A stretch of DNA of 64,000 nt, from sequence record OR352956.1, one strand, 5' to 3'. Shown here in pieces: positions 1-57,058 of this stretch (position 1 is its first letter; each line of letters begins with the position of its first letter). The position numbers and the translations under genes are program-made. Below the pieces are notes generated by a model. That model was not told the DNA's origin. It worked only from the letters and a program-made list of their open reading frames with translations, and searched no databases. The stretch comes from Escherichia phage AV126.

Positions 1-414
1 ACTAAGACCTTTATCAATGTGCGCACACGTTTGACCTCCATACTGACTGGAGGCAACAGCTTGAATGATTTGAGTTAGCACTGTAGTAGCTACCCCAATA
101 GATTTTGGTTTTTCTATCTGTGCGGCTCCGATCTTAAAACCATTCTCTAACATATCTTGATAATTAACAAGACAACAGTTTGTAAGAGGAGAGAGCAGAT
201 AATCCAAGTCGTGAATATGCCCAAAACCTTCTGTATGCCATTCTGACAAGTTTTTTGGCAGTATCTGTGTCATTGCCATATGTTTGCTTAAAATCCCCGC
301 CAAGAGATCCCTATGCGTGTTAACGAGGTGGGAAGGTTTGTTTGCATTCTCTCTAGTGTATGTTTCTGAAGTGCGATCTAAAAAAGAAAAAACATCTTGG
401 TACAAATCTTTCAT
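1..414 (-). CDS. nrdD: anaerobic ribonucleoside-triphosphate reductase NrdD, N-terminal fragment (gene continues beyond window start)
   Basis: Minus-strand translation from ATG at 414 gives MKDLYQD..ENANK..RDLLAGILSKH..GHIHDLDY..LTNCCLVN..MLENGFKIGAAQIEKPKSIGVATT..QYGG, colinear with the T4 NrdD N-terminus; AAGGA SD upstream. The ORF-track ORF 284..511(+) is antisense to it. Confidence 0.85.
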   Translation of the reverse strand, partial: MKDLYQDVFSFLDRTSETYTRENANKPSHLVNTHRDLLAGILSKHMAMTQILPKNLSEWHTEGFGHIHDLDYLLSPLTNCCLVNYQDMLENGFKIGAAQIEKPKSIGVATTVLTQIIQAVASSQYGGQTCAHIDKGLS

Positions 415-4793: not shown

Positions 4794-5147
4794 TTAGTTT
4801 ACATCGTTTAGAGCATTACCAATCTTTAAGATAATAACATCGTTAAGAGCTTCTTCTCCATTAAGGCCAGAGAAAGCAGGAGTAACGAAAGTTACCATAT
4901 AATAATGGTCTTCTTGTAGGATTGCGATAACGCCGTCTAGTTTAACATCTCCTGTGAAACGAAAAACTTTCAACTTTTGTTCTAAAGGAAGATCTCCTTC
5001 AACATTTAAAACCATATCTCCGACACCAAACTTTTCTGCCCCGATGTAGATGTAAGCTTGGTCCTCTTTTTTATGATAATACAATGTTGCTTGTTTGTCT
5101 TGTAGTGTTGTGATACCAAACACATCTACATCAATAATATTTTTCAA
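4794..5147 (-). CDS. hypothetical protein (117 aa)
   Basis: ORF co-oriented and tightly packed. Confidence 0.55.
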   Translation of the reverse strand: MKNIIDVDVFGITTLQDKQATLYYHKKEDQAYIYIGAEKFGVGDMVLNVEGDLPLEQKLKVFRFTGDVKLDGVIAILQEDHYYMVTFVTPAFSGLNGEEALNDVIILKIGNALNDVN

Positions 5148-5260
5148 AAAATTCTCCTCTTATTTTGTGTTGACCTTATTTCACATTAACCTGTGGGATA
5201 CAGAGTTGCGAGATCTGTTTAGAACCTTACCAATCCCTGCATGACTACACCCTTCACTAT

Positions 5261-5623
5261 TTAACCTAAACACATACGTGCGATCAGACCCTGGATGAGT
5301 TTATCTGCTTCTTCACGATCATAGTCGGTATCTTCTATACCACCATCTTCGTCACGATAAACTTTACCTTCCAGGTACCCAGCATCGATCAAACCAATAA
5401 TCAAATCAAACTGCCAGCAAGAGTTACCGAAAGGGCGTTTTCCACTGAAACTGTCTTCTTCTTCCCAAAGTGTAGAGAGCAGTCGTCTGAAATATTCACG
5501 CACAGTAACAGTTCCAAGATCATCGTCTTCAAAAACAACATCTAAAGCATCTGGTTCAGCTTTCTCTACAACAGGCACATAACGTTGACCATTAATAACA
5601 ACATCTACAATCGTTTCTCTCAT
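5261..5623 (-). CDS. hypothetical protein (120 aa)
   Basis: ORF; 4-nt overlap with downstream gene. Confidence 0.55.
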   Translation of the reverse strand: MRETIVDVVINGQRYVPVVEKAEPDALDVVFEDDDLGTVTVREYFRRLLSTLWEEEDSFSGKRPFGNSCWQFDLIIGLIDAGYLEGKVYRDEDGGIEDTDYDREEADKLIQGLIARMCLG

Positions 5624-12894: not shown

Positions 12895-14355
12895 GTGCCA
12901 AAAATAGTCACTTGGGAACAATATAAAACAGATATAAAACAAGCTTATCAAGGTAAGTCTTGGACTGTTGTAGATTATATTGAGCCGTGGAACGGCAATA
13001 AAACTAAACTTAGATGCATCTGTGCTCTGCATGGAGAATGGAAAACAACAAGCATAAATACCGCTAAACTAGGGAGGGGTTGTCCAGAATGCGGTAGGGA
13101 GATTATAAGTAAAGCAGTATCTATAAACAAATCAAAAACCTGGGAGCAATATAAAGAAGAAGTGCAAACCGCTTACAATCAGGCAGGTAAGTTTTGGACT
13201 GTTACAGGATGGCACGGAGAATGGAAAGGATGGAATACTAAACTGGTTTGTTGTTGTGCTTTACATGGGGAGTGGAGGTCTACTTCTATATCTTCTGCGA
13301 AAAACGGGAGTGGATGCAGGAAGTGTATGGGAGAAGCAAACAGAGAAAGAACATCGATTGCATGGGAGAAACATAAAGAAGAAGTAGAAGAAGCTTATAA
13401 AGAAAAACCCTGGATTGTTAGAGGCTATGTGGAACCGTGGAACGGTTCCCGCACTAAGTTGATTTGTGAGTGTAAGGTTCATGGTCAATGGTGCACTACC
13501 ACTGTAAACAGTGCTAAACAAGGGACTGGATGCTACAGTTGTCAAAGAGAAATGACGAAACAAAGGAATACAATGGAGGATAAACAACATGTTGAAGATT
13601 TTATAAAAGCTTGTCCTGATAATGTAGAGCGTAAATATTATCGTAGCGATAGAGTAGATAGATTAGGTCGTCAGGTTTACTGGATTGTAGAATGTCCTAT
13701 ATGTGCAGAGGATGATTATTGTAAAGAAGGCTTATGCGATAATAAATTTGAGATGAAGATGAGTCATTTGAAAAGGGGTGGCCTTCCTTGCCGTTGTTCT
13801 AAATATTATCATTACACTCCTGAACAATGGGCCTACCGTATGACCAAAGCTTGCCAGGAACGAGGGGATCAATTTATAGGATTCATTGATAAGGTAAGCA
13901 ATAACAGCAAGTTTAAATATCTATGTAGGGAGCATGGAGAGCAAACGATCACACCTACCGATTATCTCAATGGGAAAGGTTGTCCAGGCTGTAAGAACAG
14001 AAATATGCAAGAATTTTACATCAATATTATTCTTGATGAGTACGGAGAAGACACGGGAGCTTACAAGTTGGGGATTGCAAAGGACAGTGATATCAGGATC
14101 AAAGGGCAGAATGCAAACAACAATTACTTTATGCGCCGTATAGCATTGTTCGATCTGCCGTCCTACCAAGCTTGCAGGGCGTTAGAGAGTAAGCTAAAGT
14201 CTAAGACTGATCAGATTCTACCGTCTATTGGCTGTGTAGAACGCTTGCACATGAAAGATGGTCATAGTGAAACCTTCCTGCGCGAGGATTTGGCTATCGT
14301 CTTAAGTGCTATCAACCAAGCAGGTGGAATAATGAGAGAGGAGGAAACATGTTAG
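12895..14355 (+). CDS. protein with tandem Cys/His zinc-ribbon-like repeats (486 aa)
   Basis: GTG start after AAAGGGGGAGG; three or more repeats of a ~70-aa module W..YK..AY....W.V..Y.EPWNG..TKL.C.C..HGEW.TTS.N.AK.G.GC..C. Confidence 0.55.
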   Translation: MPKIVTWEQYKTDIKQAYQGKSWTVVDYIEPWNGNKTKLRCICALHGEWKTTSINTAKLGRGCPECGREIISKAVSINKSKTWEQYKEEVQTAYNQAGKFWTVTGWHGEWKGWNTKLVCCCALHGEWRSTSISSAKNGSGCRKCMGEANRERTSIAWEKHKEEVEEAYKEKPWIVRGYVEPWNGSRTKLICECKVHGQWCTTTVNSAKQGTGCYSCQREMTKQRNTMEDKQHVEDFIKACPDNVERKYYRSDRVDRLGRQVYWIVECPICAEDDYCKEGLCDNKFEMKMSHLKRGGLPCRCSKYYHYTPEQWAYRMTKACQERGDQFIGFIDKVSNNSKFKYLCREHGEQTITPTDYLNGKGCPGCKNRNMQEFYINIILDEYGEDTGAYKLGIAKDSDIRIKGQNANNNYFMRRIALFDLPSYQACRALESKLKSKTDQILPSIGCVERLHMKDGHSETFLREDLAIVLSAINQAGGIMREEETC

Positions 14356-14727: not shown

Positions 14728-14907
14728 ATGGCACGTTTAGCAGATCATGAAATCTTTAAACCTATTCTGAACCACTATGATGAACTTAAAGCAGTGTTGG
14801 ATTGTTATAGAGAGGATGAAGAACGTTTGGAAGTCAATCTTAAGATAGTTCTGATGAAAGCTTTTCAAGACGGGCAAGCTAAAGTTTTAGAAGGCATGAA
14901 AAAATGA
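14728..14907 (+). CDS. hypothetical protein (59 aa)
   Basis: ATG at 14728 after AAGGAGAAA. Confidence 0.45.
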   Translation: MARLADHEIFKPILNHYDELKAVLDCYREDEERLEVNLKIVLMKAFQDGQAKVLEGMKK

Positions 14908-15446
14908 GAATAACTGATGAATATGTATTCTTCTTTTCACATAAAGATGTGTTTAGTAATTGGTATATTGCACCCTTTACAGAAACTGAACTAGGTTACA
15001 ATGAGACTTTCTGTTGTGTTGAGCAATATATGATGTGGCGTAAGGCTTTGCTGTTCAAGGATCATGCGATTGCAGCAGCTATCCTTGATCACTCAACTAT
15101 ACGTGACAACGAGAGGAAACAAGCATACTACAAACGTATGGGTCGAGCGGTATCTGGTTTTAATAATGATATGTGGGAAGAGAACCGTGAGCGTATTGTT
15201 ATGCGAGGCTTATGCTTGAAATATGTACAGAATCCAGATTTGTATGCAGACTTACACCTTTACCAATACAAAACGTTTGTTGAAGCAAGCCCCTACGATA
15301 AGGTTTACGGAATTGGAATGGGGATGTATGAACCAGGGGTGCTAAACCCTGCTACCTGGAAAGGGCAGAATCTTTTAGGCAAATATCATAATAAACTGAT
15401 CGAAATACTTTTCCCAGACAAAATACCGCAAAGACGATATTTGTGA
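14904..15446 (+). CDS. NADAR-domain protein (YbiA/DUF1768-like, 180 aa)
   Basis: FFFSHKDVFSNWY..., CVEQYMMWRKALLF, RMGRAV and C-terminal EASPYDKVYGIGMG match the NADAR pattern. Confidence 0.7.
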   Translation: MRITDEYVFFFSHKDVFSNWYIAPFTETELGYNETFCCVEQYMMWRKALLFKDHAIAAAILDHSTIRDNERKQAYYKRMGRAVSGFNNDMWEENRERIVMRGLCLKYVQNPDLYADLHLYQYKTFVEASPYDKVYGIGMGMYEPGVLNPATWKGQNLLGKYHNKLIEILFPDKIPQRRYL

Positions 15447-44627: not shown

Positions 44628-44670
44628 GCTAGAACCCACCTAAATCGAACAGAGACGCTCTAAAATAGAA

Positions 44671-44698
44671 AAGGCACCCACTTGGGTGCCTTTGTTTT
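44671..44698. terminator. bidirectional rho-independent terminator at convergence point
   Basis: AAGGCACCCACTTGGGTGCCTT flanked by A-run upstream and T-run downstream; between last plus gene and last minus gene. Confidence 0.75.
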
Positions 44699-44969
44699 AT
44701 TCTTCGTTAGATTGCGTTTCAGATGCGTTAAATTCGGTTTCAGTACAACTTGCTAGGTAACTTATATTTTGCATCACTACAACTACAGGTGTTTGAAGTT
44801 TATCTTCTAGCCCCGCAGCCACTTGAGCCAAGGCATTATCAATATTTGATTTCCTAACACCTGTTCCATGTCCTGTTGCCAAGTAAAGATTACCTTCCCC
44901 TTTTTGTGTAGCATTAGCAAAGTAGTAAACGTAATGTGCAAGGTAGTAATCACGGATTTCTTCAGTCAT
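44697..44969 (-). CDS. hypothetical protein (90 aa)
   Basis: Last gene of leftward block; AGGAGAA SD. Confidence 0.5.
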   Translation of the reverse strand: MTEEIRDYYLAHYVYYFANATQKGEGNLYLATGHGTGVRKSNIDNALAQVAAGLEDKLQTPVVVVMQNISYLASCTETEFNASETQSNEE

Positions 44970-44986: not shown

Positions 44987-45006
44987 AAAGGGGCCGAAGC
45001 CCCTTG
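44987..45006 (-). terminator. intercistronic GC hairpin with UUCG loop (minus strand)
   Basis: Minus sense AAGGGGCUUCGGCCCCUUU after Sir2 stop, then SD and ATG of next gene. Confidence 0.45.
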
Positions 45007-45012
45007 AGTGGT

Positions 45013-45813
45013 TTATTTGTTTAAATGGTCTTCAACCATTTTGATAAAGCCTTCATCACTGAAGACTGTTCCTGCTTTCTCTCGGTAGACAAGCACTCCA
45101 CGTTCTTCGTAGAGAGTTTGTTCTACAAAATTCAAACCTGGGTTAACTACTACCATCTTAACCCCAATATTCAGGGCAGGGAAGAGTTCCCAGTTGAAGT
45201 TGATTACTTGGTTAGAGCAGCCTACAACGATAACCATATCTTGTGATGTTAGTTGATCCAGTTTGTGATACATGTCTGTGTAGAGTGGTGCATTCTCACC
45301 AAAAAACACCACATTAGGCTTCACATATTTGTAATCGTCTACATCAATAGCTGCGTAACCCACATCTTTGATAATTTTGTTATCAACAACAACTTCTGGC
45401 AAGAAGCCATGAACGTGCAATATTTCTTCTCTATCGATTCCAGCGCGTTCTAATAGATCGTCAACGTTAGTAGTAATGTTAATAATCCTTTCTGCACCGT
45501 ATTTTTCGAACCATTCTCCAATCTGAAGATGTGCTGGATTCGGGTCAACTTTCTCTAATTCCACGCGACGTTTATTGTAGAAGTCGTGAGTTTTACGGTA
45601 GAGGTTATATCCTTCCACATCTAAGCCACCCATAGCATCAGGAATACCCTGTTCTTGCTGATAACCGTCACGGAAGTTGAAAATGTCACAGACTTCTGTT
45701 AAATCGTATTCATCCCATAATGCCTTTCCAGAATCTGTTTCTGTGCGAAATGTTTGGATTCCGCTGTCAGCACTTAGTCCCGCACCACTAATAAAATATA
45801 CACGTCTTGGCAT
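45013..45813 (-). CDS. Sir2-family NAD-dependent protein (sirtuin-like, 266 aa)
   Basis: GAGLSADSGIQTFR (Rossmann NAD motif), TTNVDDLLERAG...HVHG (catalytic His), PNVVFFGE, IVVGCSNQV; no CxxC zinc-ribbon pairs. Confidence 0.75.
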   Translation of the reverse strand: MPRRVYFISGAGLSADSGIQTFRTETDSGKALWDEYDLTEVCDIFNFRDGYQQEQGIPDAMGGLDVEGYNLYRKTHDFYNKRRVELEKVDPNPAHLQIGEWFEKYGAERIINITTNVDDLLERAGIDREEILHVHGFLPEVVVDNKIIKDVGYAAIDVDDYKYVKPNVVFFGENAPLYTDMYHKLDQLTSQDMVIVVGCSNQVINFNWELFPALNIGVKMVVVNPGLNFVEQTLYEERGVLVYREKAGTVFSDEGFIKMVEDHLNK

Positions 45814-46286
45814 TATTCGTCCTCCTCAAATGGATCATAAGAATCATATTCGTAAGTATCATCTTCTGAAAATTCTACTTCGAAATAAATATCAAACTCT
45901 GCAAACAGACGTAGGATGTTAGACATGCTATAATAATTATCGTAGGCAGATTCAGCTTCATAGTAAACATAAAGCAAATGGTTAGCCTTATCATCTTCCA
46001 AATATTTCCCGTCTGCATACGCATAGTCTGCATATGCTTTACCTGCATCTTCTACAAGAGAACGATCAAGCAGAGTAGGAAATGGTTTCTCTTTTTCTTT
46101 TAGTTTGCTCACCAACCAATGTGCAATATCATTCCATTCTGCATCCATACCACTAAAGCAACTTGCTTCTTCTCCAAAAGAAGCTTCTCCTAAATCGCCA
46201 CTAATACGAACAACATTAGATGAATTATAGCCACACGTTTCACAATCAGAGTAACTATTATGCACATTGACATTTACTTGAAACAT
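45813..46286 (-). CDS. hypothetical acidic protein (157 aa)
   Basis: ORF; start overlaps Sir2 stop. Confidence 0.5.
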   Translation of the reverse strand: MFQVNVNVHNSYSDCETCGYNSSNVVRISGDLGEASFGEEASCFSGMDAEWNDIAHWLVSKLKEKEKPFPTLLDRSLVEDAGKAYADYAYADGKYLEDDKANHLLYVYYEAESAYDNYYSMSNILRLFAEFDIYFEVEFSEDDTYEYDSYDPFEEDE

Positions 46287-46344
46287 ATTCCCTCCTATAA
46301 AAGAAAAGCCCCCTGAAACAGGAGGCTTTGTTCAGATGTTGGCA

Positions 46345-46998
46345 CTATACCAGACTTTGTAGGTATTTGTCAAGGGCTTCTTGATCACCTTGGCAAACAT
46401 AGCAACGGAAGTCTTGAGCCGAAGGTTGTTTATTTTCATCCCAATCCCAATAAACGTTACCTTTATAACGTGAACCAGGGAACTCAAAAGAGGCTGTATG
46501 TGTAATGTACCCTGGGCCACCAGTGAAATCACAGAATGAAAATTGAGGGTATGCCGCCTTTACTGCCTCAATAAACCAAGCTTTACGATCTAAGGCTTCA
46601 TTGATGCTATATGCATGTCTCTCCATTTCTTCCCAAGTTTTCCAGACGCTTCTCTCATCAGGAGAGAAGACAAGCCATTCTGGAAGGTAGAGAGTGTCAT
46701 AGTAATCATCATATTCGATCTCGGATGCGCACGAAGCTGACTCCTCCAACTTTGAGTAGTCAAAAGCGGAATATACCCACCAACCATCTTCCAGCAAGGC
46801 TTTGATAGGGACAAAACCTTTATCTGCATATTGATCAAATTGTTTGACACGGTGGCTTGTGCAGTCTTCAAACTCACATTCTAAACGATATGCACCTTTT
46901 CGACGAGCCTCAAGACCGTGTGTACTGAAAATAACAACACTTCCTTCACCATCATTACGATCTACTTGATAAGCAACTACTGGTTTTGAATTTGACAT
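46345..46998 (-). CDS. hypothetical protein (217 aa)
   Basis: ORF in co-oriented block. Confidence 0.5.
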   Translation of the reverse strand: MSNSKPVVAYQVDRNDGEGSVVIFSTHGLEARRKGAYRLECEFEDCTSHRVKQFDQYADKGFVPIKALLEDGWWVYSAFDYSKLEESASCASEIEYDDYYDTLYLPEWLVFSPDERSVWKTWEEMERHAYSINEALDRKAWFIEAVKAAYPQFSFCDFTGGPGYITHTASFEFPGSRYKGNVYWDWDENKQPSAQDFRCYVCQGDQEALDKYLQSLV

Positions 46999-47681
46999 TA
47001 TTTCTCCTTATCTAGAAGATTGTTAGACAAAAACACTGCACGAGCAAAACCACGTGCGGTTAGTGATCTAAGTTGTTTTGTTTTTGCACTGGCTCCGCCT
47101 AAGCTTTTCCAACCCCAGAAGCAGCCTATATGATCTACTGGTTTCTTCACTGGTTGAACAAAACCATTGCCGTGCCAAATACAAGTTTTCTTTGTATACC
47201 CATCACGGGTAGGCATTTTAGGATGAAAGCTTCCTTCCTCTTCAAACAAATACCCACCATACTCATAAGGATCAAAGTAAAAATCGGGTTTACGCCATAA
47301 GGTTGAAAGTTTACCTACTGGGTTTTCAATCATCCAAGGAACATTATATTTGTTACCCAAAGCTTCCACTACACGAATATTAGCTAAAGCTTCGTCTAAT
47401 TCCTCTGTGCTGCGTTCGTGTTTGCTACCACTACCTGCTAACATAGTGCAAGGTGGAAATCCAAAAATAATATCGGGTTTAGGTATTCCATGATCTTCAG
47501 GGTTGAATGTAGAATCTATCCAAGCATTCACATAGGTTATGTTTGGGTGTTCCATCCTAACCTCGTATTTACCGTGGTCCCCTTCATCAGCGTTTACACA
47601 AAAACACTTGTGACCTGCTTCGGCATAACGTAACACCATGATCCCAGATCCGTCAAACATAGACAAAACTGTTTTACTCAT
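46998..47681 (-). CDS. C5-methyltransferase-fold protein (about 227 aa)
   Basis: ATG 47681 after GGAGGGG; FDGSG (motif I-like), GFPPCT (motif IV-like Pro-Cys), ENPVGK (ENV-like); no obvious target-recognition domain. Confidence 0.45.
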   Translation of the reverse strand: MSKTVLSMFDGSGIMVLRYAEAGHKCFCVNADEGDHGKYEVRMEHPNITYVNAWIDSTFNPEDHGIPKPDIIFGFPPCTMLAGSGSKHERSTEELDEALANIRVVEALGNKYNVPWMIENPVGKLSTLWRKPDFYFDPYEYGGYLFEEEGSFHPKMPTRDGYTKKTCIWHGNGFVQPVKKPVDHIGCFWGWKSLGGASAKTKQLRSLTARGFARAVFLSNNLLDKEK

Positions 47682-48087
47682 TACCCCTCCATTCAAGACA
47701 AGCCATAACTTTACGCCAATCACTTTCTGTAAGAAAAATCTCGTTTGCTTTCTTCCACAAATCTAGATCGTGAAGGGTTGGAATACGATATGTTAGTTCA
47801 CAGAATCTATGTTCTTCTTCTGTAATATAACCAAAATGCAAAGCCACATCGTGAAACCAACACCAACCATGCATCTCTCGAACAACATGATCATGTTGAG
47901 ACATTGTTTTATGACGTAAACCTAACCAACAAGGAACAGATACTTTAGTAGTCTTTAATCTGTGATCAACAGTATTAGAGTATTCAATAATAGCTATCAA
48001 TTTCAATCGTGCTTTTTCTAAATCCTCATGCGGCACTTTGAAATAACTTTCTGAAAGATATCCACACATATTAATAACCTCCTTCAA
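47674..48087 (-). CDS. hypothetical protein (137 aa)
   Basis: ORF overlapping neighbours. Confidence 0.5.
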   Translation of the reverse strand: MKEVINMCGYLSESYFKVPHEDLEKARLKLIAIIEYSNTVDHRLKTTKVSVPCWLGLRHKTMSQHDHVVREMHGWCWFHDVALHFGYITEEEHRFCELTYRIPTLHDLDLWKKANEIFLTESDWRKVMACLEWRGNE

Positions 48088-49012
48088 AAGGCTTAACTAC
48101 ATGTTGATTAGCTTTAAAACGTTCAACATAGTCGTTTTCACCCATGTTTTCATATAGCTTAGTAACAACATAAAAGTTCTCCCAAGCATATTCCCTAAAC
48201 CAACCACTAGTGATAGATGTGCAAACTTTAGATAAAGCCATCATAAAACTTTGCTTAGGGGTTGGACCTCCGATCTCTTCACCGAAAGGAATTTGTGAAC
48301 GTTCCAAAGCCAAAACACACGCTTCTTCATAAACACCTAACAGGCGCACATGTTTTGGTTGAGCAAAAAACTTTTCTTTGCTGGTCATAACTTCACTTCC
48401 ATCTTTCATATAAGATTTATATGCTGGAGCATCCATTACTGCGATTGCTTCATGAATAGAGTCATGATCATAAACATACGGAACCTCATCACCTTTAAAG
48501 AAGTCTTTACTTCTCACGTTTAAGTTTGGATGAGAGTAAGTATATGTTTCTTTCTCACGCAACTCATAAATACTCTTAAGATTTTCTGGGATCTTTGCGC
48601 CTAGTGATCGCATGAAATGAATATCTTTCATAGTTTTAAAGAAGTAAGGACTATCCTTTTTAAAACGATGACTCATTTTAAGAAGGTAGAGCACATCTAA
48701 AGGAGCAACAACGTGTCCAGCGTAAGTTCGACGAATATCATCACAGTCTTCACAATAACTAATCAAAGCTTCTGTGCTATTTCCTTGAGAAGCAATATCG
48801 TATTCCAAATGTGCACCCGCTATCATTTTGACATGGCCCTTGTTCCCTTTACGCTCTACAAGTTCAACAAACTCATCTTGAGAGAACATTTTTGATAATT
48901 CTTCCCACTCTTGTTCTGTACAGAGATAATCTAAATCTACACAAGGGCGATACAAGTCTTTTCCCATGTCCATAGCATGAATTTGTAATGCACGGCTACC
49001 AATTAACACCAT
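48071..49012 (-). CDS. hypothetical protein (313 aa)
   Basis: ORF with upstream promoter (TTGACA-17-TAAACT) at 49043-49071; weak nucleotidyltransferase-like GS...DLD pattern. Confidence 0.5.
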   Translation of the reverse strand: MVLIGSRALQIHAMDMGKDLYRPCVDLDYLCTEQEWEELSKMFSQDEFVELVERKGNKGHVKMIAGAHLEYDIASQGNSTEALISYCEDCDDIRRTYAGHVVAPLDVLYLLKMSHRFKKDSPYFFKTMKDIHFMRSLGAKIPENLKSIYELREKETYTYSHPNLNVRSKDFFKGDEVPYVYDHDSIHEAIAVMDAPAYKSYMKDGSEVMTSKEKFFAQPKHVRLLGVYEEACVLALERSQIPFGEEIGGPTPKQSFMMALSKVCTSITSGWFREYAWENFYVVTKLYENMGENDYVERFKANQHVVKPFEGGY

Positions 49013-56299: not shown

Positions 56300-57058
56300 T
56301 TAAATAAACACTTCAGTAATCAGTTTAGACAAACGTCCACGTTTATTATCGTCCGTTGTCAGTTCAACATATCCAATAAAATCTACAATTGGCTCACGAA
56401 CACCTTCTTCATTTTCTGGATATAAAAGTTCCAAAATTTGATGCAGACCATTGCTACGTTTTTTAATTGCATATGTCTGGCGAACATCACCTAATACAAT
56501 AACATGCGTATTAATACCTGCACGTTCAATAAGAAGTTTAAGTGTTTCTGTTGACATAAGTTGTGCTTCGTCAATAATGACAATTGTATTATCCAGGGTA
56601 GCTCCCAACAAATAGTTAGGAATATTCAATTCGATCTTACCTGATCCAATATCGTTTTCCAATTTGTTGGCTGTCATGAATTGCTGGAAAATACGTTTTG
56701 TAGATTCATAGTGTGCTGCTAGTTTATCTGTTTTATCCCCAGACAAGAAACCAATCTGGTCATCTCCGACTTCAGTAGGGTTTTTGATAAAAAGTAGTTT
56801 ACGGAAGTCTCCTGAACGAAGCATCTGCAAAGCTTTCCATAAAGCAACAGAGGTTTTACCAGTCCCTGCCGGAGCATTTACAACAGTCAGATCATTCCAA
56901 ATCATGCTTTGAACAATCTTATTTTGGTCCCCTTCAGGCATAAATTCATCTAAACGGTAATCGTCATTACCTACCGCTTTTGCTGCATAACGGCTTTCAA
57001 TCTTTGCTGAATTAGCCAGTTTCTGCCGTTGTGTTTTAGCTGCGGTTTTATTTCCCAT
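56300..57058 (-). CDS. phoH: PhoH-like ATPase (about 252 aa)
   Basis: ATG 57058 after AAGGAG; VNAPAGTGKTSVAL (Walker A), VIIDEAQLMS (Walker B). Confidence 0.8.
   Translation of the reverse strand: MGNKTAAKTQRQKLANSAKIESRYAAKAVGNDDYRLDEFMPEGDQNKIVQSMIWNDLTVVNAPAGTGKTSVALWKALQMLRSGDFRKLLFIKNPTEVGDDQIGFLSGDKTDKLAAHYESTKRIFQQFMTANKLENDIGSGKIELNIPNYLLGATLDNTIVIIDEAQLMSTETLKLLIERAGINTHVIVLGDVRQTYAIKKRSNGLHQILELLYPENEEGVREPIVDFIGYVELTTDDNKRGRLSKLITEVFI

What the first reader, a model, noticed from the sequence alone, without database searches (positions are those of the whole stretch)
45013..45813. Zinc-less Sir2-family protein in the phage
The ORF has the sirtuin NAD-binding motif GAGLSADSGIQTFR and catalytic HVHG, and is colinear with CobB-like sirtuins, but lacks the CxxC...CxxC zinc ribbon. 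Sir2 domains without the zinc module include NADase or ADP-ribosyltransferase effectors of bacterial defence systems. A phage-encoded copy could act in host takeover, superinfection exclusion or counter-defence. Together with the NADAR gene at 14904, the phage appears to manipulate NAD/ADP-ribose chemistry.
Basis: partly seen in the sequence, partly recalled or inferred. Interest (0 to 1): 0.65.

Follow-up and report, generated by a model that had tools for sequence, protein, structure and literature searches.

The report
Zinc-free sirtuin of a coliphage
This phage gene encodes an intact, CobB-like NAD-dependent sirtuin that has lost its zinc-binding cysteines; the gene is already annotated, belongs to a phage family already described as zinc-less, and its real substrate has never been tested.

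Summary
Window 45013-45813 (minus strand) encodes a 266-aa Sir2-family protein (Pfam PF02146, E=1.4e-20; PHROG 2162, E=1e-96). It has GAGLSADSGIQTFR and HVHG and only two cysteines, neither in a CxxC motif.

The window is a Phapecoctavirus. A 100% identical protein is already deposited as "NAD-dependent protein deacylase". Homologues occur in 980 phage records.

- The catalytic Asn, Asp and His and the class-III Tyr-x-x-Arg dyad are conserved.
- There is no PADLOC hit.

Zinc loss defines a whole clade and goes with one substitution: TQN(I/V)D becomes TTNVD. The clade also includes chromosomal genes of Marinobacterium.

Prior work noted zinc loss in KVP40-type homologues (2016). A 2022 study predicted an RNA-repair, Tpt1-like role from gene neighbourhoods. 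This phage has no RNA ligase, and the protein is very acidic.

Best guess: an NAD-dependent deacylase of host or phage proteins (about 0.45). Interest is modest: a known, widespread, biochemically untested family.

The parts
45013..45813 (-). Sir2-family CDS, 266 aa plus stop codon
   Evidence: ORF list and sequence. Pfam SIR2 E=1.4e-20. PHROG 2162 E=1.1e-96. AlphaFold2 model pLDDT 94.6, pTM 0.91.
45745..45786 (-). NAD-binding motif GAGLSADSGIQTFR (residues 10-23), start of the cofactor-binding loop
   Evidence: G10, G12, G18 and R23 are invariant; A11, S14, S17 and F22 are at least 90% conserved in 54 relatives. The following residues 21-40 have the lowest pLDDT (68-84), as expected for a mobile cofactor loop.
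45604..45666 (-). Lineage-specific insertion, residues 50-70 (GYQQEQGIPDAMGGLDVEGYN)
   Evidence: These columns are gaps in more than 85% of both family clades. Modelled without regular secondary structure at pLDDT 90-93.
45565..45579 (-). Y79-N-K-R82-R83, equivalent to the class-III Tyr-x-x-Arg dyad (CobB FYNARR; SIRT5 Tyr102/Arg105)
   Evidence: Alignment to CobB. F78 and Y79 are invariant and R83 is at least 90% conserved; R82 is present in 108 of 146 sequences. Role of the dyad taken from PMC9340778.
45460..45474 (-). TTNVD (residues 114-118), the variant of the sirtuin TQN(I/V)D motif: Gln replaced by Thr, Asn116 and Asp118 kept
   Evidence: Position 115 is T in 83% of the zinc-less clade and Q in 100% of the zinc-containing clade. 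It is the only sharply discriminating column apart from the cysteines.
45406..45417 (-). HVHG (residues 133-136), with catalytic His135
   Evidence: H135 and G136 are invariant in 146 and in 54 sequences. The reverse complement of 45406-45417 reads CAC GTT CAT GGC.
45322..45405 (-). Cysteine-free remnant of the zinc module (residues 137-164), with the conserved D-V-G-Y hairpin
   Evidence: No Cys here, whereas sister sequences have CxxC...IGY...CxxC at the same place. Modelled as beta-strands 136-143 and 147-150 with pLDDT of about 97.
45295..45321 (-). KPNVVFFGE (residues 165-173), the FGE substrate/NAD loop
   Evidence: F171 is invariant; K165, P166, G172 and E173 are at least 90% conserved.
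45813..46286 (-). Upstream ORF, 157 aa, very acidic, with conserved SDCETCG...C. Its TAA stop overlaps the Sir2 ATG by one base (TAATG).
   Evidence: PHROG 9509, function unknown; no Pfam hit. Directly upstream of Sir2 in 6 Phapecoctavirus-type loci. No PDB relative.
44697..44969 (-). Downstream ORF, 90 aa, last gene of the leftward unit
   Evidence: PHROG 15991, function unknown. Follows Sir2 in the same 6 loci.
44988..45005 (-). GC-rich hairpin (AAGGGGC-UUCG-GCCCCUU) between the Sir2 stop and the next gene's ribosome-binding site
   Evidence: RNA fold of the 56-nt stretch: -13.9 kcal/mol, z=-2.27. The simple terminator scan did not call it.
46305..46329 (-). Terminator-like hairpin with T-run, upstream of the 157-aa ORF
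44670..44693 (.). Bidirectional terminator-like hairpin closing the convergent units
   Evidence: Together with 46305-46329 it brackets a likely three-gene unit (157 aa, Sir2, 90 aa). This is an inference.

Best explanation
Shown: the gene encodes a complete, canonical-type sirtuin that descends from small CobB-like (class III-like) sirtuins. The four zinc-ligand cysteines are gone, but the small beta-hairpin module that carried them remains. All residues that bind NAD and carry out sirtuin chemistry are kept.

Inferred: it is an active, zinc-independent, NAD+-consuming enzyme made during infection. Its most likely activity is lysine deacylation. An acyl-lysine of a host or phage protein attacks C1' of NAD+ and releases nicotinamide. 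His135 then activates the ribose 2'-OH, and the acyl group leaves as O-acyl-ADP-ribose. The retained Tyr79/Arg82 dyad points to short or negatively charged acyl groups, or more generally to an anionic substrate.

The Gln-to-Thr change next to the NAD ribose tracks zinc loss across the clade. This suggests a shift in substrate or in the second chemical step. The direction of that shift is unknown.
For: - Family: Pfam SIR2 at 74.5 bits and PHROG 2162 at E=1e-96.
- Closest sequences in the PDB are Af2 Sir2 and E. coli CobB (E about 1e-14), followed by SIRT5.
- The model is confident (pLDDT 94.6, pTM 0.91). All top 50 Foldseek hits are canonical deacylase sirtuins, led by CobB 1S5P (TM 0.86 over the target, 26% identity).
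- Invariant or nearly invariant residues: G10, G12, G18, R23, F78, Y79, R83, H95, T114, N116, D118, H135, G136, F171, E173, G198 and S200.
- The SIRT5 equivalents of these residues bind the NAD ribose (Asn141), nicotinamide (Asp143) and acidic acyl-lysine (Tyr102, Arg105), and provide the catalytic His158 (PMC9340778).
- Zinc is structural, not catalytic, in CobB (PMC8556138).
- The same zinc-less TTNVD type is a stand-alone chromosomal gene in many Marinobacterium species, among ordinary metabolic genes. That fits a housekeeping enzyme.
- The family persists in 980 phage records from at least five phage groups, which argues for a selected activity.
Against: - No biochemical data exist for any member in the literature I could search.
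- Gln115, which contacts the NAD ribose in canonical sirtuins, is replaced by Thr. The same change is seen across the whole zinc-less clade.
- In canonical sirtuins the zinc module helps build the peptide-binding cleft, so peptide binding could be altered.
- The protein scores far below every NCBIfam CobB cutoff (94.5 against 243 bits).
- In other phages the gene lies beside RNA-end-processing or NAD-resynthesis genes rather than obvious protein-modification partners.
- E. coli already has CobB, so a plain duplicate of its function would need a separate rationale (my own knowledge).
Confidence: 0.45

Rival explanations
1. RNA-repair sirtuin (Iyer et al. 2022). [quoted passage not shown] It would be a sirtuin-fold analogue of Tpt1/KptA that helps the phage undo host anticodon nucleases.
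For: - The window protein belongs to the clade that paper names. It is 49% identical to the homologue in Vequintavirus nom (rV5-type), 53-59% to T5-like homologues and 39% to that of Serratia phage BF.
- In Vequintavirinae the gene lies in a run of phosphoesterase, Rnl1-type RNA ligase, cREC, P-loop kinase, Sir2, DNA ligase and a MazG-like gene.
- In T5-like phages a HAD_SAK_2 'Swiss-army-knife RNA repair' phosphatase follows it.
- Sirtuin chemistry (attack on C1', then the 2'-OH forming a 1',2'-cyclic species) parallels the two Tpt1 steps (PMC9503650; Tpt1 abstracts).
- The Tyr/Arg anion-binding dyad could hold a phosphate (inference).
Against: - This phage lacks the partners. tblastn with the Vequintavirinae RNA ligase, kinase, 2H, HAD and Nudix proteins finds nothing in the 64-kb window. 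It also finds nothing in about 131 kb of the 145-kb nearly identical nieznany genome; the remaining 14 kb is annotated as structural genes and tRNAs.
- The cREC, phosphoesterase, DNA ligase and MazG-like genes of nieznany lie about 28 kb from Sir2.
- The protein is very acidic (pI 4.65, net charge about -19; clade median pI 5.09). This is unlike an RNA-binding enzyme, although a local basic patch was not examined.
- The '2H' neighbour in jumbo phages matches the anti-CBASS Acb1 family better than RNA ligase-type 2H (56.4 against 22.3 bits).
- A T4-type Pnkp/Rnl1 pathway leaves no 2'-phosphate to remove (my own knowledge).
Confidence: 0.2
2. NAD+-consuming effector for host takeover or counter-defence. 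The enzyme would ADP-ribosylate a host protein (for example a defence or transcription/translation factor), or process an NAD-derived molecule, as part of the phage's NAD/ADP-ribose toolkit.
For: - In jumbo phages (Serratia BF type) the gene is embedded between NMNAT-Nudix, NAMPT (the NARP2-type NAD+ resynthesis pair), an Acb1-like 2H phosphodiesterase and a Nudix-cREC protein.
- A NAMPT-like gene is the neighbour shared by the largest number of Sir2 lineages (7 of 18 in my clustering).
- The window also carries a NADAR gene.
- Some sirtuins are ADP-ribosyltransferases (SirTM; PMC8556138).
- The Q115T change could favour a different second step (inference).
Against: - The catalytic His is kept. 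It is dispensable or absent in ADP-ribosylating SirTM.
- Structure and sequence are nearer to deacylases than to SirTM or defence NADases.
- There is no PADLOC hit.
- No Macro-domain partner is found next to the gene.
- NAD+-resynthesis neighbours are equally expected for any NAD+-consuming deacylase, because nicotinamide is the by-product (PMC5107563).
- The NADAR gene is 30 kb away on the other strand, so no functional link is shown.
Confidence: 0.2
3. Catalytically dead binder or decaying gene. After losing zinc the protein would only bind NAD/ADP-ribose-like ligands (a sponge), or would be drifting towards loss.
For: [quoted passage not shown] Skliros et al. raised the stability question for the Vibrio phage protein.
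Against: - Every catalytic and NAD-binding residue is invariant or nearly so across a deep clade.
- The module is modelled confidently without zinc.
- Full-length copies occur in 910 of 980 phage records.
- Chromosomal Marinobacterium orthologues are conserved across species.
Confidence: 0.05

Closest known systems
E. coli CobB and other class III sirtuins (Af1 Sir2, SIRT5)
   Same: Best sequence and structure matches. Colinear catalytic core. Shares GAGxS...TFR, the N-x-D pair, catalytic His-Gly, FGE, and the class-III Tyr-x-x-Arg dyad that recognises acidic acyl-lysines.
   Different: No zinc-ligand cysteines. Thr replaces the Gln of TQN(I/V)D. G-C-S replaces G-T-S. Has a 21-residue insertion (50-70). 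Only 26% identical to CobB and far below the NCBIfam CobB cutoffs. Very acidic.
Phage Sir2/CobB proteins of KVP40-type Vibrio phages (phiSt2, phiGrn1; Skliros et al. 2016, PMC5107563)
   Same: Same family: about 36% identity to the Vibrio phage VH7D homologue, in the same zinc-less clade of the tree. Zinc ligands absent and catalytic His kept. That paper already names T5, SPC35, GAP32, My1 and JD001 as carriers.
   Different: Different phage lineage and gene neighbourhood. The Vibrio proteins have Ala rather than Thr at position 115. Their proposed role (Acs reactivation) is as untested as any proposed here.
'Distinct clade of phage sirtuins' predicted to act in RNA repair (Iyer et al. 2022, PMC9503650)
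   Same: The window protein is a member by sequence, with 39-59% identity to homologues in the phage groups of the named exemplars (rV5/Mydo-type, T5-like, BF).
   Different: The defining neighbourhood (RNA ligase, kinase, 2H, HAD, Nudix) is missing from this phage. Here Sir2 lies between genes of unknown function, downstream of a Dcm-like methyltransferase.
SirTM (macrodomain-linked ADP-ribosylating sirtuins)
   Different: SirTM is reported to lack the catalytic His and is encoded with a Macro domain, GcvH-L and LplA2. Here the His is invariant and no such partners are present.
Defence-associated SIR2 NADases (ThsA, DSR1/2, SIR2-HerA/Nezha, SPARSA, Avs5; PF13289)
   Same: Distant Rossmann-type SIR2 core that also lacks a zinc ribbon.

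Membership tests
Canonical Sir2/sirtuin family (Pfam PF02146) | Profile match above the curated threshold over the whole catalytic core | tested here: met
   74.5 bits against a cutoff of 24; residues 10-203 cover model positions 1-178 of 180.
Canonical Sir2/sirtuin family (Pfam PF02146) | Catalytic residues: Asn and Asp of TQNxD, and the His of the HG motif | tested here: met
   N116 and H135 are invariant; D118 is at least 90% conserved.
Canonical Sir2/sirtuin family (Pfam PF02146) | Gln of the TQN(I/V)D motif, which contacts the NAD ribose | tested here: not met
   Thr115. T, A or S throughout the zinc-less clade; Q in 100% of the zinc-containing clade. Role of the Gln from PMC9340778.
Canonical Sir2/sirtuin family (Pfam PF02146) | Four-cysteine structural zinc site in the small domain | tested here: not met
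   No Cys in residues 137-164 and only C42 and C199 in the whole protein.
Canonical Sir2/sirtuin family (Pfam PF02146) | Rossmann domain plus small domain fold | tested here: met
Canonical Sir2/sirtuin family (Pfam PF02146) | NAD+-dependent deacylase activity | not testable with these tools
   Needs enzyme assays. No published assay was found for any clade member.
CobB / class III sirtuins (NCBIfam equivalogs) | Score above the NCBIfam equivalog or subfamily cutoffs | tested here: not met
   Best scores are 94.5 against 243 bits (NF001753) and 79.7 against 320 bits (NF040867).
CobB / class III sirtuins (NCBIfam equivalogs) | Tyr-x-x-Arg dyad for acidic acyl-lysine | tested here: met
   Y79 and R82 align with CobB FYNARR. 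Y79 is invariant; R82 is present in 108 of 146 sequences.
Phage sirtuin clade (PHROG 2162; Iyer et al. 2022; Skliros et al. 2016) | Sequence membership | tested here: met
   PHROG 2162 E=1.1e-96. Groups with the homologues of Vequintavirus nom (rV5-type), Tequintavirus OSYSP (T5-like), Mydovirus KB57, Serratia phage BF and Vibrio phage VH7D in the NJ tree.
Phage sirtuin clade (PHROG 2162; Iyer et al. 2022; Skliros et al. 2016) | Absence of zinc ligands | tested here: met
   Reported for the KVP40-type proteins in PMC5107563.
Phage sirtuin clade (PHROG 2162; Iyer et al. 2022; Skliros et al. 2016) | Neighbourhood of RNA-end-healing and sealing genes (RNA ligase, kinase, 2H, HAD, cREC, Nudix) | tested here: not met
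   None within 6 kb either side or anywhere in the window. No RNA ligase, kinase, 2H, HAD or Nudix in the reference genome.
Tpt1/KptA-like RNA 2'-phosphotransferase (functional analogy only) | Presence in the same genome of a pathway that creates RNA 2'-phosphate (2H esterase or yeast/plant-type ligase) | tested here: not met
   tblastn and the deposited annotation of the nearly identical nieznany genome find none.
Tpt1/KptA-like RNA 2'-phosphotransferase (functional analogy only) | Nucleic-acid-binding (basic) surface | tested here: inconclusive
   Whole-protein pI 4.65 and charge about -19.
SirTM | Loss of the catalytic His, and an operon with a Macro domain, GcvH-L and LplA2 | tested here: not met
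Defence-associated SIR2 (PF13289; ThsA, DSR, SIR2-HerA, SPARSA) | SIR2_2 or PADLOC profile match, and a fused or adjacent sensor or partner | tested here: not met

The most novel reading that the evidence does not exclude
Zinc loss and the Gln115-to-Thr change together mark a real change of job. The clade would no longer deacylate lysines. It would use the retained Tyr/Arg anion pocket and sirtuin chemistry on a phosphorylated or NAD-derived substrate. Candidates are RNA 2'-phosphate (a sirtuin-fold Tpt1 analogue) or an ADP-ribose-based immune signal or product. That would make it a widespread phage counter-defence or repair enzyme of a new biochemical type, also used chromosomally by Marinobacterium.
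Probability: 0.2. Interest if true: 0.75.

Novelty: already known. Interest (0 to 1): 0.3.

Why it matters
Sirtuins of this type occur in about 980 sequenced phages, including the T5-like, rV5-like, phAPEC8-like and KVP40-like groups and some jumbo phages. Many of these are model or therapy phages. No member has been assayed. NAD+ is now known to be a central battleground between phages and bacterial immunity, so a conserved NAD+-consuming phage enzyme is a clear gap.

If it is a deacylase, it would be the first known phage-encoded eraser of host protein acylation. It would also be a natural example of a sirtuin that folds without zinc. If it acts on RNA 2'-phosphate or NAD-derived molecules, it would add a new reaction to the sirtuin fold.

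For this window, though, the gene is an ordinary, already annotated member of that family.

Tried and rejected
2. RNA-repair context in this phage: searched the window and the reference genome with RNA ligase, kinase, cREC, MazG-like, HAD, 2H, Nudix, NAMPT and NMNAT proteins from other Sir2 loci. Only the cREC, phosphoesterase, DNA ligase and MazG-like genes were found, and they lie far from Sir2 and outside the window.
3. Function of the immediate neighbours (157-, 217- and 90-aa ORFs, the Dcm-like methyltransferase, the DUF7275/7277 protein): Pfam, PHROGs and PDB sequence searches gave no functional lead. I did not model them.
4. Whether the upstream CxxC-containing acidic protein supplies a zinc ribbon in trans: it occurs only in Phapecoctavirus-type loci (6 of 85) whereas zinc loss is clade-wide, so it cannot explain the loss. 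No complex prediction was possible.
5. Names and origin of the zinc-containing sister sequences: cluster look-up returned only unnamed metagenomic entries.
6. Bacterial operon context as a functional clue: the Marinobacterium neighbours are unrelated metabolic genes and vary between species.
7. tRNA genes in the window: none.
8. Literature on characterised zinc-free sirtuins (Sir2La preprint, bacterial sirtuin review): nothing relevant.
9. The first genome-contig scan with the wide alignment failed for lack of a conserved stretch and was rerun with a narrower alignment.
Full report
**The object.** Window 45013-45813 holds a 266-aa ORF on the minus strand. Its ATG lies 6 nt after a GAGGAGGA ribosome-binding site and overlaps by one base (TAATG) the stop codon of an upstream 157-aa ORF. 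GAGLSADSGIQTFR is residues 10-23 and HVHG is residues 133-136. The protein has two cysteines (C42, C199) and no CxxC. Pfam assigns the canonical SIR2 family (PF02146) at 74.5 bits against a cutoff of 24, covering nearly the whole model. PHROGs places it in phrog_2162, 'Sir2 (NAD-dependent deacetylase)', at E=1e-96.

**Where it comes from.**
- The window is 98-99.8% identical to Escherichia phage nieznany and other Phapecoctavirus genomes, where this gene is annotated as a Sir2-family or NAD-dependent deacylase.
- A 100% identical protein is deposited for phage KKP 3954.
- tblastn finds homologues in 980 phage records, 910 of them essentially full length. They include Phapecoctavirus, T5-like Tequintavirus and relatives, Vequintavirinae (rV5 and Mydovirus types), KVP40-like Schizotequatrovirus and jumbo Eneladusvirus (Serratia phage BF).

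**What kind of sirtuin it is.**
- The nearest solved proteins by sequence are Af2 Sir2, E. coli CobB and SIRT5.
- An AlphaFold2 model built on 54 relatives is confident (pLDDT 94.6, pTM 0.91).
- All top 50 Foldseek hits are canonical deacylases. E. coli CobB leads, with TM 0.86 normalised to CobB and 26% identity.
- PF13289 is below threshold and PADLOC has no hit.
- The zinc-less state is therefore not a sign of kinship with defence NADases. It is a secondary loss inside the CobB-like branch.

**Anatomy of the loss.** I aligned 146 sequences: 141 of the 150 representatives from an exhaustive profile-free search, kept by length, plus five phage homologues from fetched loci.
- The family splits cleanly in an NJ tree.
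- One clade contains every phage sequence. It has no cysteines between HG and KPNVVFFGE, and it has Thr (sometimes Ala or Ser) where all canonical sirtuins have the Gln of TQN(I/V)D.
- The other clade has Gln and CxxC...IGY...CxxC.
- The counts are Q with Zn 73; T, A or S without Zn 47; Q without Zn 10; non-Q with Zn 15. These counts are clade-structured, so they are not independent events.
- A few basal members of the T clade still keep 3-4 cysteines. A second small group lost the cysteines but kept Gln.
- Position 115 is the only column, apart from the cysteines, that sharply separates the two clades.
- The hairpin that carried the ligands is retained, including its conserved D-[VI]-G-Y tip. 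It is modelled as two strands at pLDDT of about 97.
- Residues 50-70 of the window protein are an insertion that most of the family lacks.

**Catalytic competence.** G10, G12, G18, R23, W33, F78, Y79, H95, T114, N116, H135, G136, F171, Y178 and G198 are invariant. S14, S17, F22, R83, P91, N92, D118, E122, K165, P166, G172, E173 and S200 are at least 90% conserved. In SIRT5 the equivalent Asn141 contacts the NAD ribose, Asp143 binds nicotinamide, His158 is the catalytic base, and Tyr102/Arg105 bind the carboxylate of succinyl-, malonyl- or glutaryl-lysine. Gln140, replaced here by Thr, also contacts the ribose (PMC9340778). Zinc in CobB is structural, not catalytic, and SirTM ADP-ribosyltransferases are reported to lack the catalytic His (PMC8556138). 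The protein therefore looks like an active NAD+-consuming sirtuin with an anion-friendly acyl pocket and a modified ribose contact.

**Surroundings in the window.**
- Terminator-like hairpins at 46329-46305 (minus strand) and 44693-44670 bracket a probable three-gene unit. It consists of the 157-aa acidic ORF (PHROG 9509, conserved SDCETCG...C), Sir2, and a 90-aa ORF (PHROG 15991).
- A GC-rich hairpin (44988-45005) lies between Sir2 and the last gene.
- Upstream lie a 217-aa ORF (PHROG 8514), a Dcm-like DNA methyltransferase (PHROG 757), a 137-aa ORF and a DUF7275/DUF7277 protein.
- Further up are a DprA-like protein and a calcineurin-like phosphoesterase.
- None of these gives a functional clue. 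The 157- and 90-aa partners occur only in Phapecoctavirus-type loci.

**Surroundings elsewhere.** I clustered the ORFs within about 6 kb either side of the gene in 85 phage loci and checked key proteins with Pfam. There are four recurrent contexts:
- Phapecoctavirus and related types, as described above.
- Vequintavirinae: phosphoesterase, Rnl1-type RNA ligase, cREC, AAA_33 kinase, Sir2, DNA ligase and a MazG-like gene.
- T5-like phages: PhoH, NrdD, small ORFs, Sir2 and a HAD_SAK_2 phosphatase.
- Jumbo BF-like phages: NMNAT-Nudix, NAMPT, a 2H protein that matches the anti-CBASS Acb1 family (56.4 bits), Sir2, Nudix-cREC and PhoH.

A NAMPT-like gene is the neighbour shared by the most Sir2 lineages. 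These contexts fit any NAD+-consuming enzyme whose nicotinamide is recycled. In jumbo phages they look at least as much like a counter-defence island as like RNA repair.

**Testing the published RNA-repair idea on this phage.** Iyer et al. (PMC9503650) proposed that this clade removes RNA 2'-phosphates as Tpt1/KptA does.
- Here the partners are missing. There is no tblastn hit for RNA ligase, kinase, 2H, HAD, Nudix, NAMPT or NMNAT in the window.
- The same search finds nothing in 131 kb of the nieznany genome. The remaining 14 kb is annotated as structural genes and tRNAs.
- Homologues of the cREC, phosphoesterase, DNA ligase and MazG-like genes exist, but about 28 kb away and outside the window.
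- The protein is strongly acidic (pI 4.65, charge about -19; clade median pI 5.09 against 6.31 for the zinc clade).
- These points lower the idea but do not exclude it.

**Cellular relatives.** Among one genome per species of 185,579 prokaryotic species, the nearest relatives are at most 43% identical. Most are chromosomal genes of Marinobacterium species, with a few in other genomes. The Marinobacterium copies are also cysteine-free with (T/S)-T/S-NVDDL. They sit next to ordinary metabolic genes such as indolepyruvate oxidoreductase-like, amino-acid dehydrogenase-like, sodium symporter-like and MetE-like proteins, in varying arrangements. The neighbour identities were read from the sequences and not profile-checked. 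The zinc-less T-type enzyme is therefore not phage-exclusive, and in those bacteria it behaves like a housekeeping gene. This modestly favours a CobB-like role.

**Prior art.** Skliros et al. 2016 modelled the Sir2/CobB of KVP40-type Vibrio phages on CobB. They noted the missing zinc ligands (also in KVP40), proposed salt bridges as a substitute, and suggested deacetylation of host acetyl-CoA synthetase. They saw peak transcription at about 20 min after infection and listed T5 and other phages as carriers (PMC5107563). Iyer et al. 2022 singled out the clade on gene-neighbourhood grounds. I found no biochemical or genetic study of any member. Papers outside the searchable library could exist.

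**Verdict.**
- The sequence observation is right.
- The reading 'zinc-less, therefore like defence NADase/ART SIR2' is not supported.
- The gene is a known, annotated member of a known zinc-less phage sirtuin clade.
- Most likely mechanism: NAD+-dependent lysine deacylation of host or phage proteins (about 0.45).
- Rivals: RNA 2'-phosphate removal (about 0.2), an ADP-ribosylating or NAD-processing effector (about 0.2), and an inactive binder (about 0.05).

Three modest additions come from this analysis. Zinc loss is tightly coupled to the Gln115-to-Thr change. Chromosomal Marinobacterium orthologues exist. An RNA-ligation partner is absent from this phage.

Noticed in passing
window 14904-15446 (+): A 180-aa ORF is a clear NADAR domain protein (PF08719, E=3.9e-35). 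It lies about 30 kb from Sir2 on the other strand, and no link between the two is shown.
   Followed up: partly
window 45813-46286 (-): A 157-aa, very acidic ORF with conserved SDCETCG...C has a stop codon that overlaps the Sir2 start (TAATG). It is found only in Phapecoctavirus-type loci, always directly upstream of Sir2. It might be a partner, regulator or DNA mimic. It has no Pfam or PDB relatives.
   Followed up: partly
L005:4281-4727 (Serratia phage BF, gene just upstream of Sir2): The '2H/RNA ligase' neighbour used in the literature as evidence for RNA repair matches the anti-CBASS Acb1 family (PF23474, 56.4 bits) much better than 2_5_RNA_ligase2 (22.3 bits). With the NAMPT and NMNAT-Nudix genes next to it, the locus looks like a counter-defence island.
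   Followed up: partly
L093-L113 (Marinobacterium spp. chromosomes), match at about 5001-5600 of each locus: Zinc-less sirtuins of the TTNVDDL type, 36-40% identical to the phage protein, are conserved chromosomal genes across many Marinobacterium species. They lie among metabolic genes, not in prophages.
   Followed up: partly
window 12895-14355 (+): A 486-aa ORF is built from several repeats of an approximately 80-residue unit with paired cysteines (...TKLxCxCxxHGEWxxTxIxxAKxGxGCxxC...) followed by a C-terminal domain. The nieznany record annotates it only as 'endonuclease'.
   Followed up: no
window 46998-47723 (-) and 48071-49012 (-): A Dcm-like DNA methyltransferase (PHROG 757, no Pfam hit) and a DUF7277+DUF7275 protein are syntenic with Sir2 and the 217-aa ORF in three related groups of phages of about 140-150 kb.
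   Followed up: no
window 46344-46373 (-) and 46305-46329 (-): A near-consensus sigma-70-like promoter (TTGACA-18-TATAGT with an extended TG) lies immediately upstream of a terminator-like hairpin, in the order promoter then terminator, just before the 157-aa ORF. The arrangement is unexplained.
   Followed up: no
NJ tree (P0219, P0220, P0236, P0240, P0242, P0262, P0265): A second, separate group within the zinc-containing clade has also lost the cysteines, and most of its members keep Gln115. Zinc loss therefore happened more than once in small CobB-like sirtuins.
   Followed up: no
L088:2224-7443 (phage nieznany, outside the window): The cREC, phosphoesterase, ATP-dependent DNA ligase and MazG-like genes that flank Sir2 in Vequintavirinae are clustered here without Sir2 or RNA ligase. 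The module has been rearranged between the two phage groups.
   Followed up: partly
window about 56306-56896 (-) and 1-408 (-): A PhoH-like gene and the 5' part of an NrdD-like anaerobic ribonucleotide reductase gene are present. In nieznany NrdD is annotated in separate pieces, which suggests an intervening element. No tRNA genes occur in the window.
   Followed up: no
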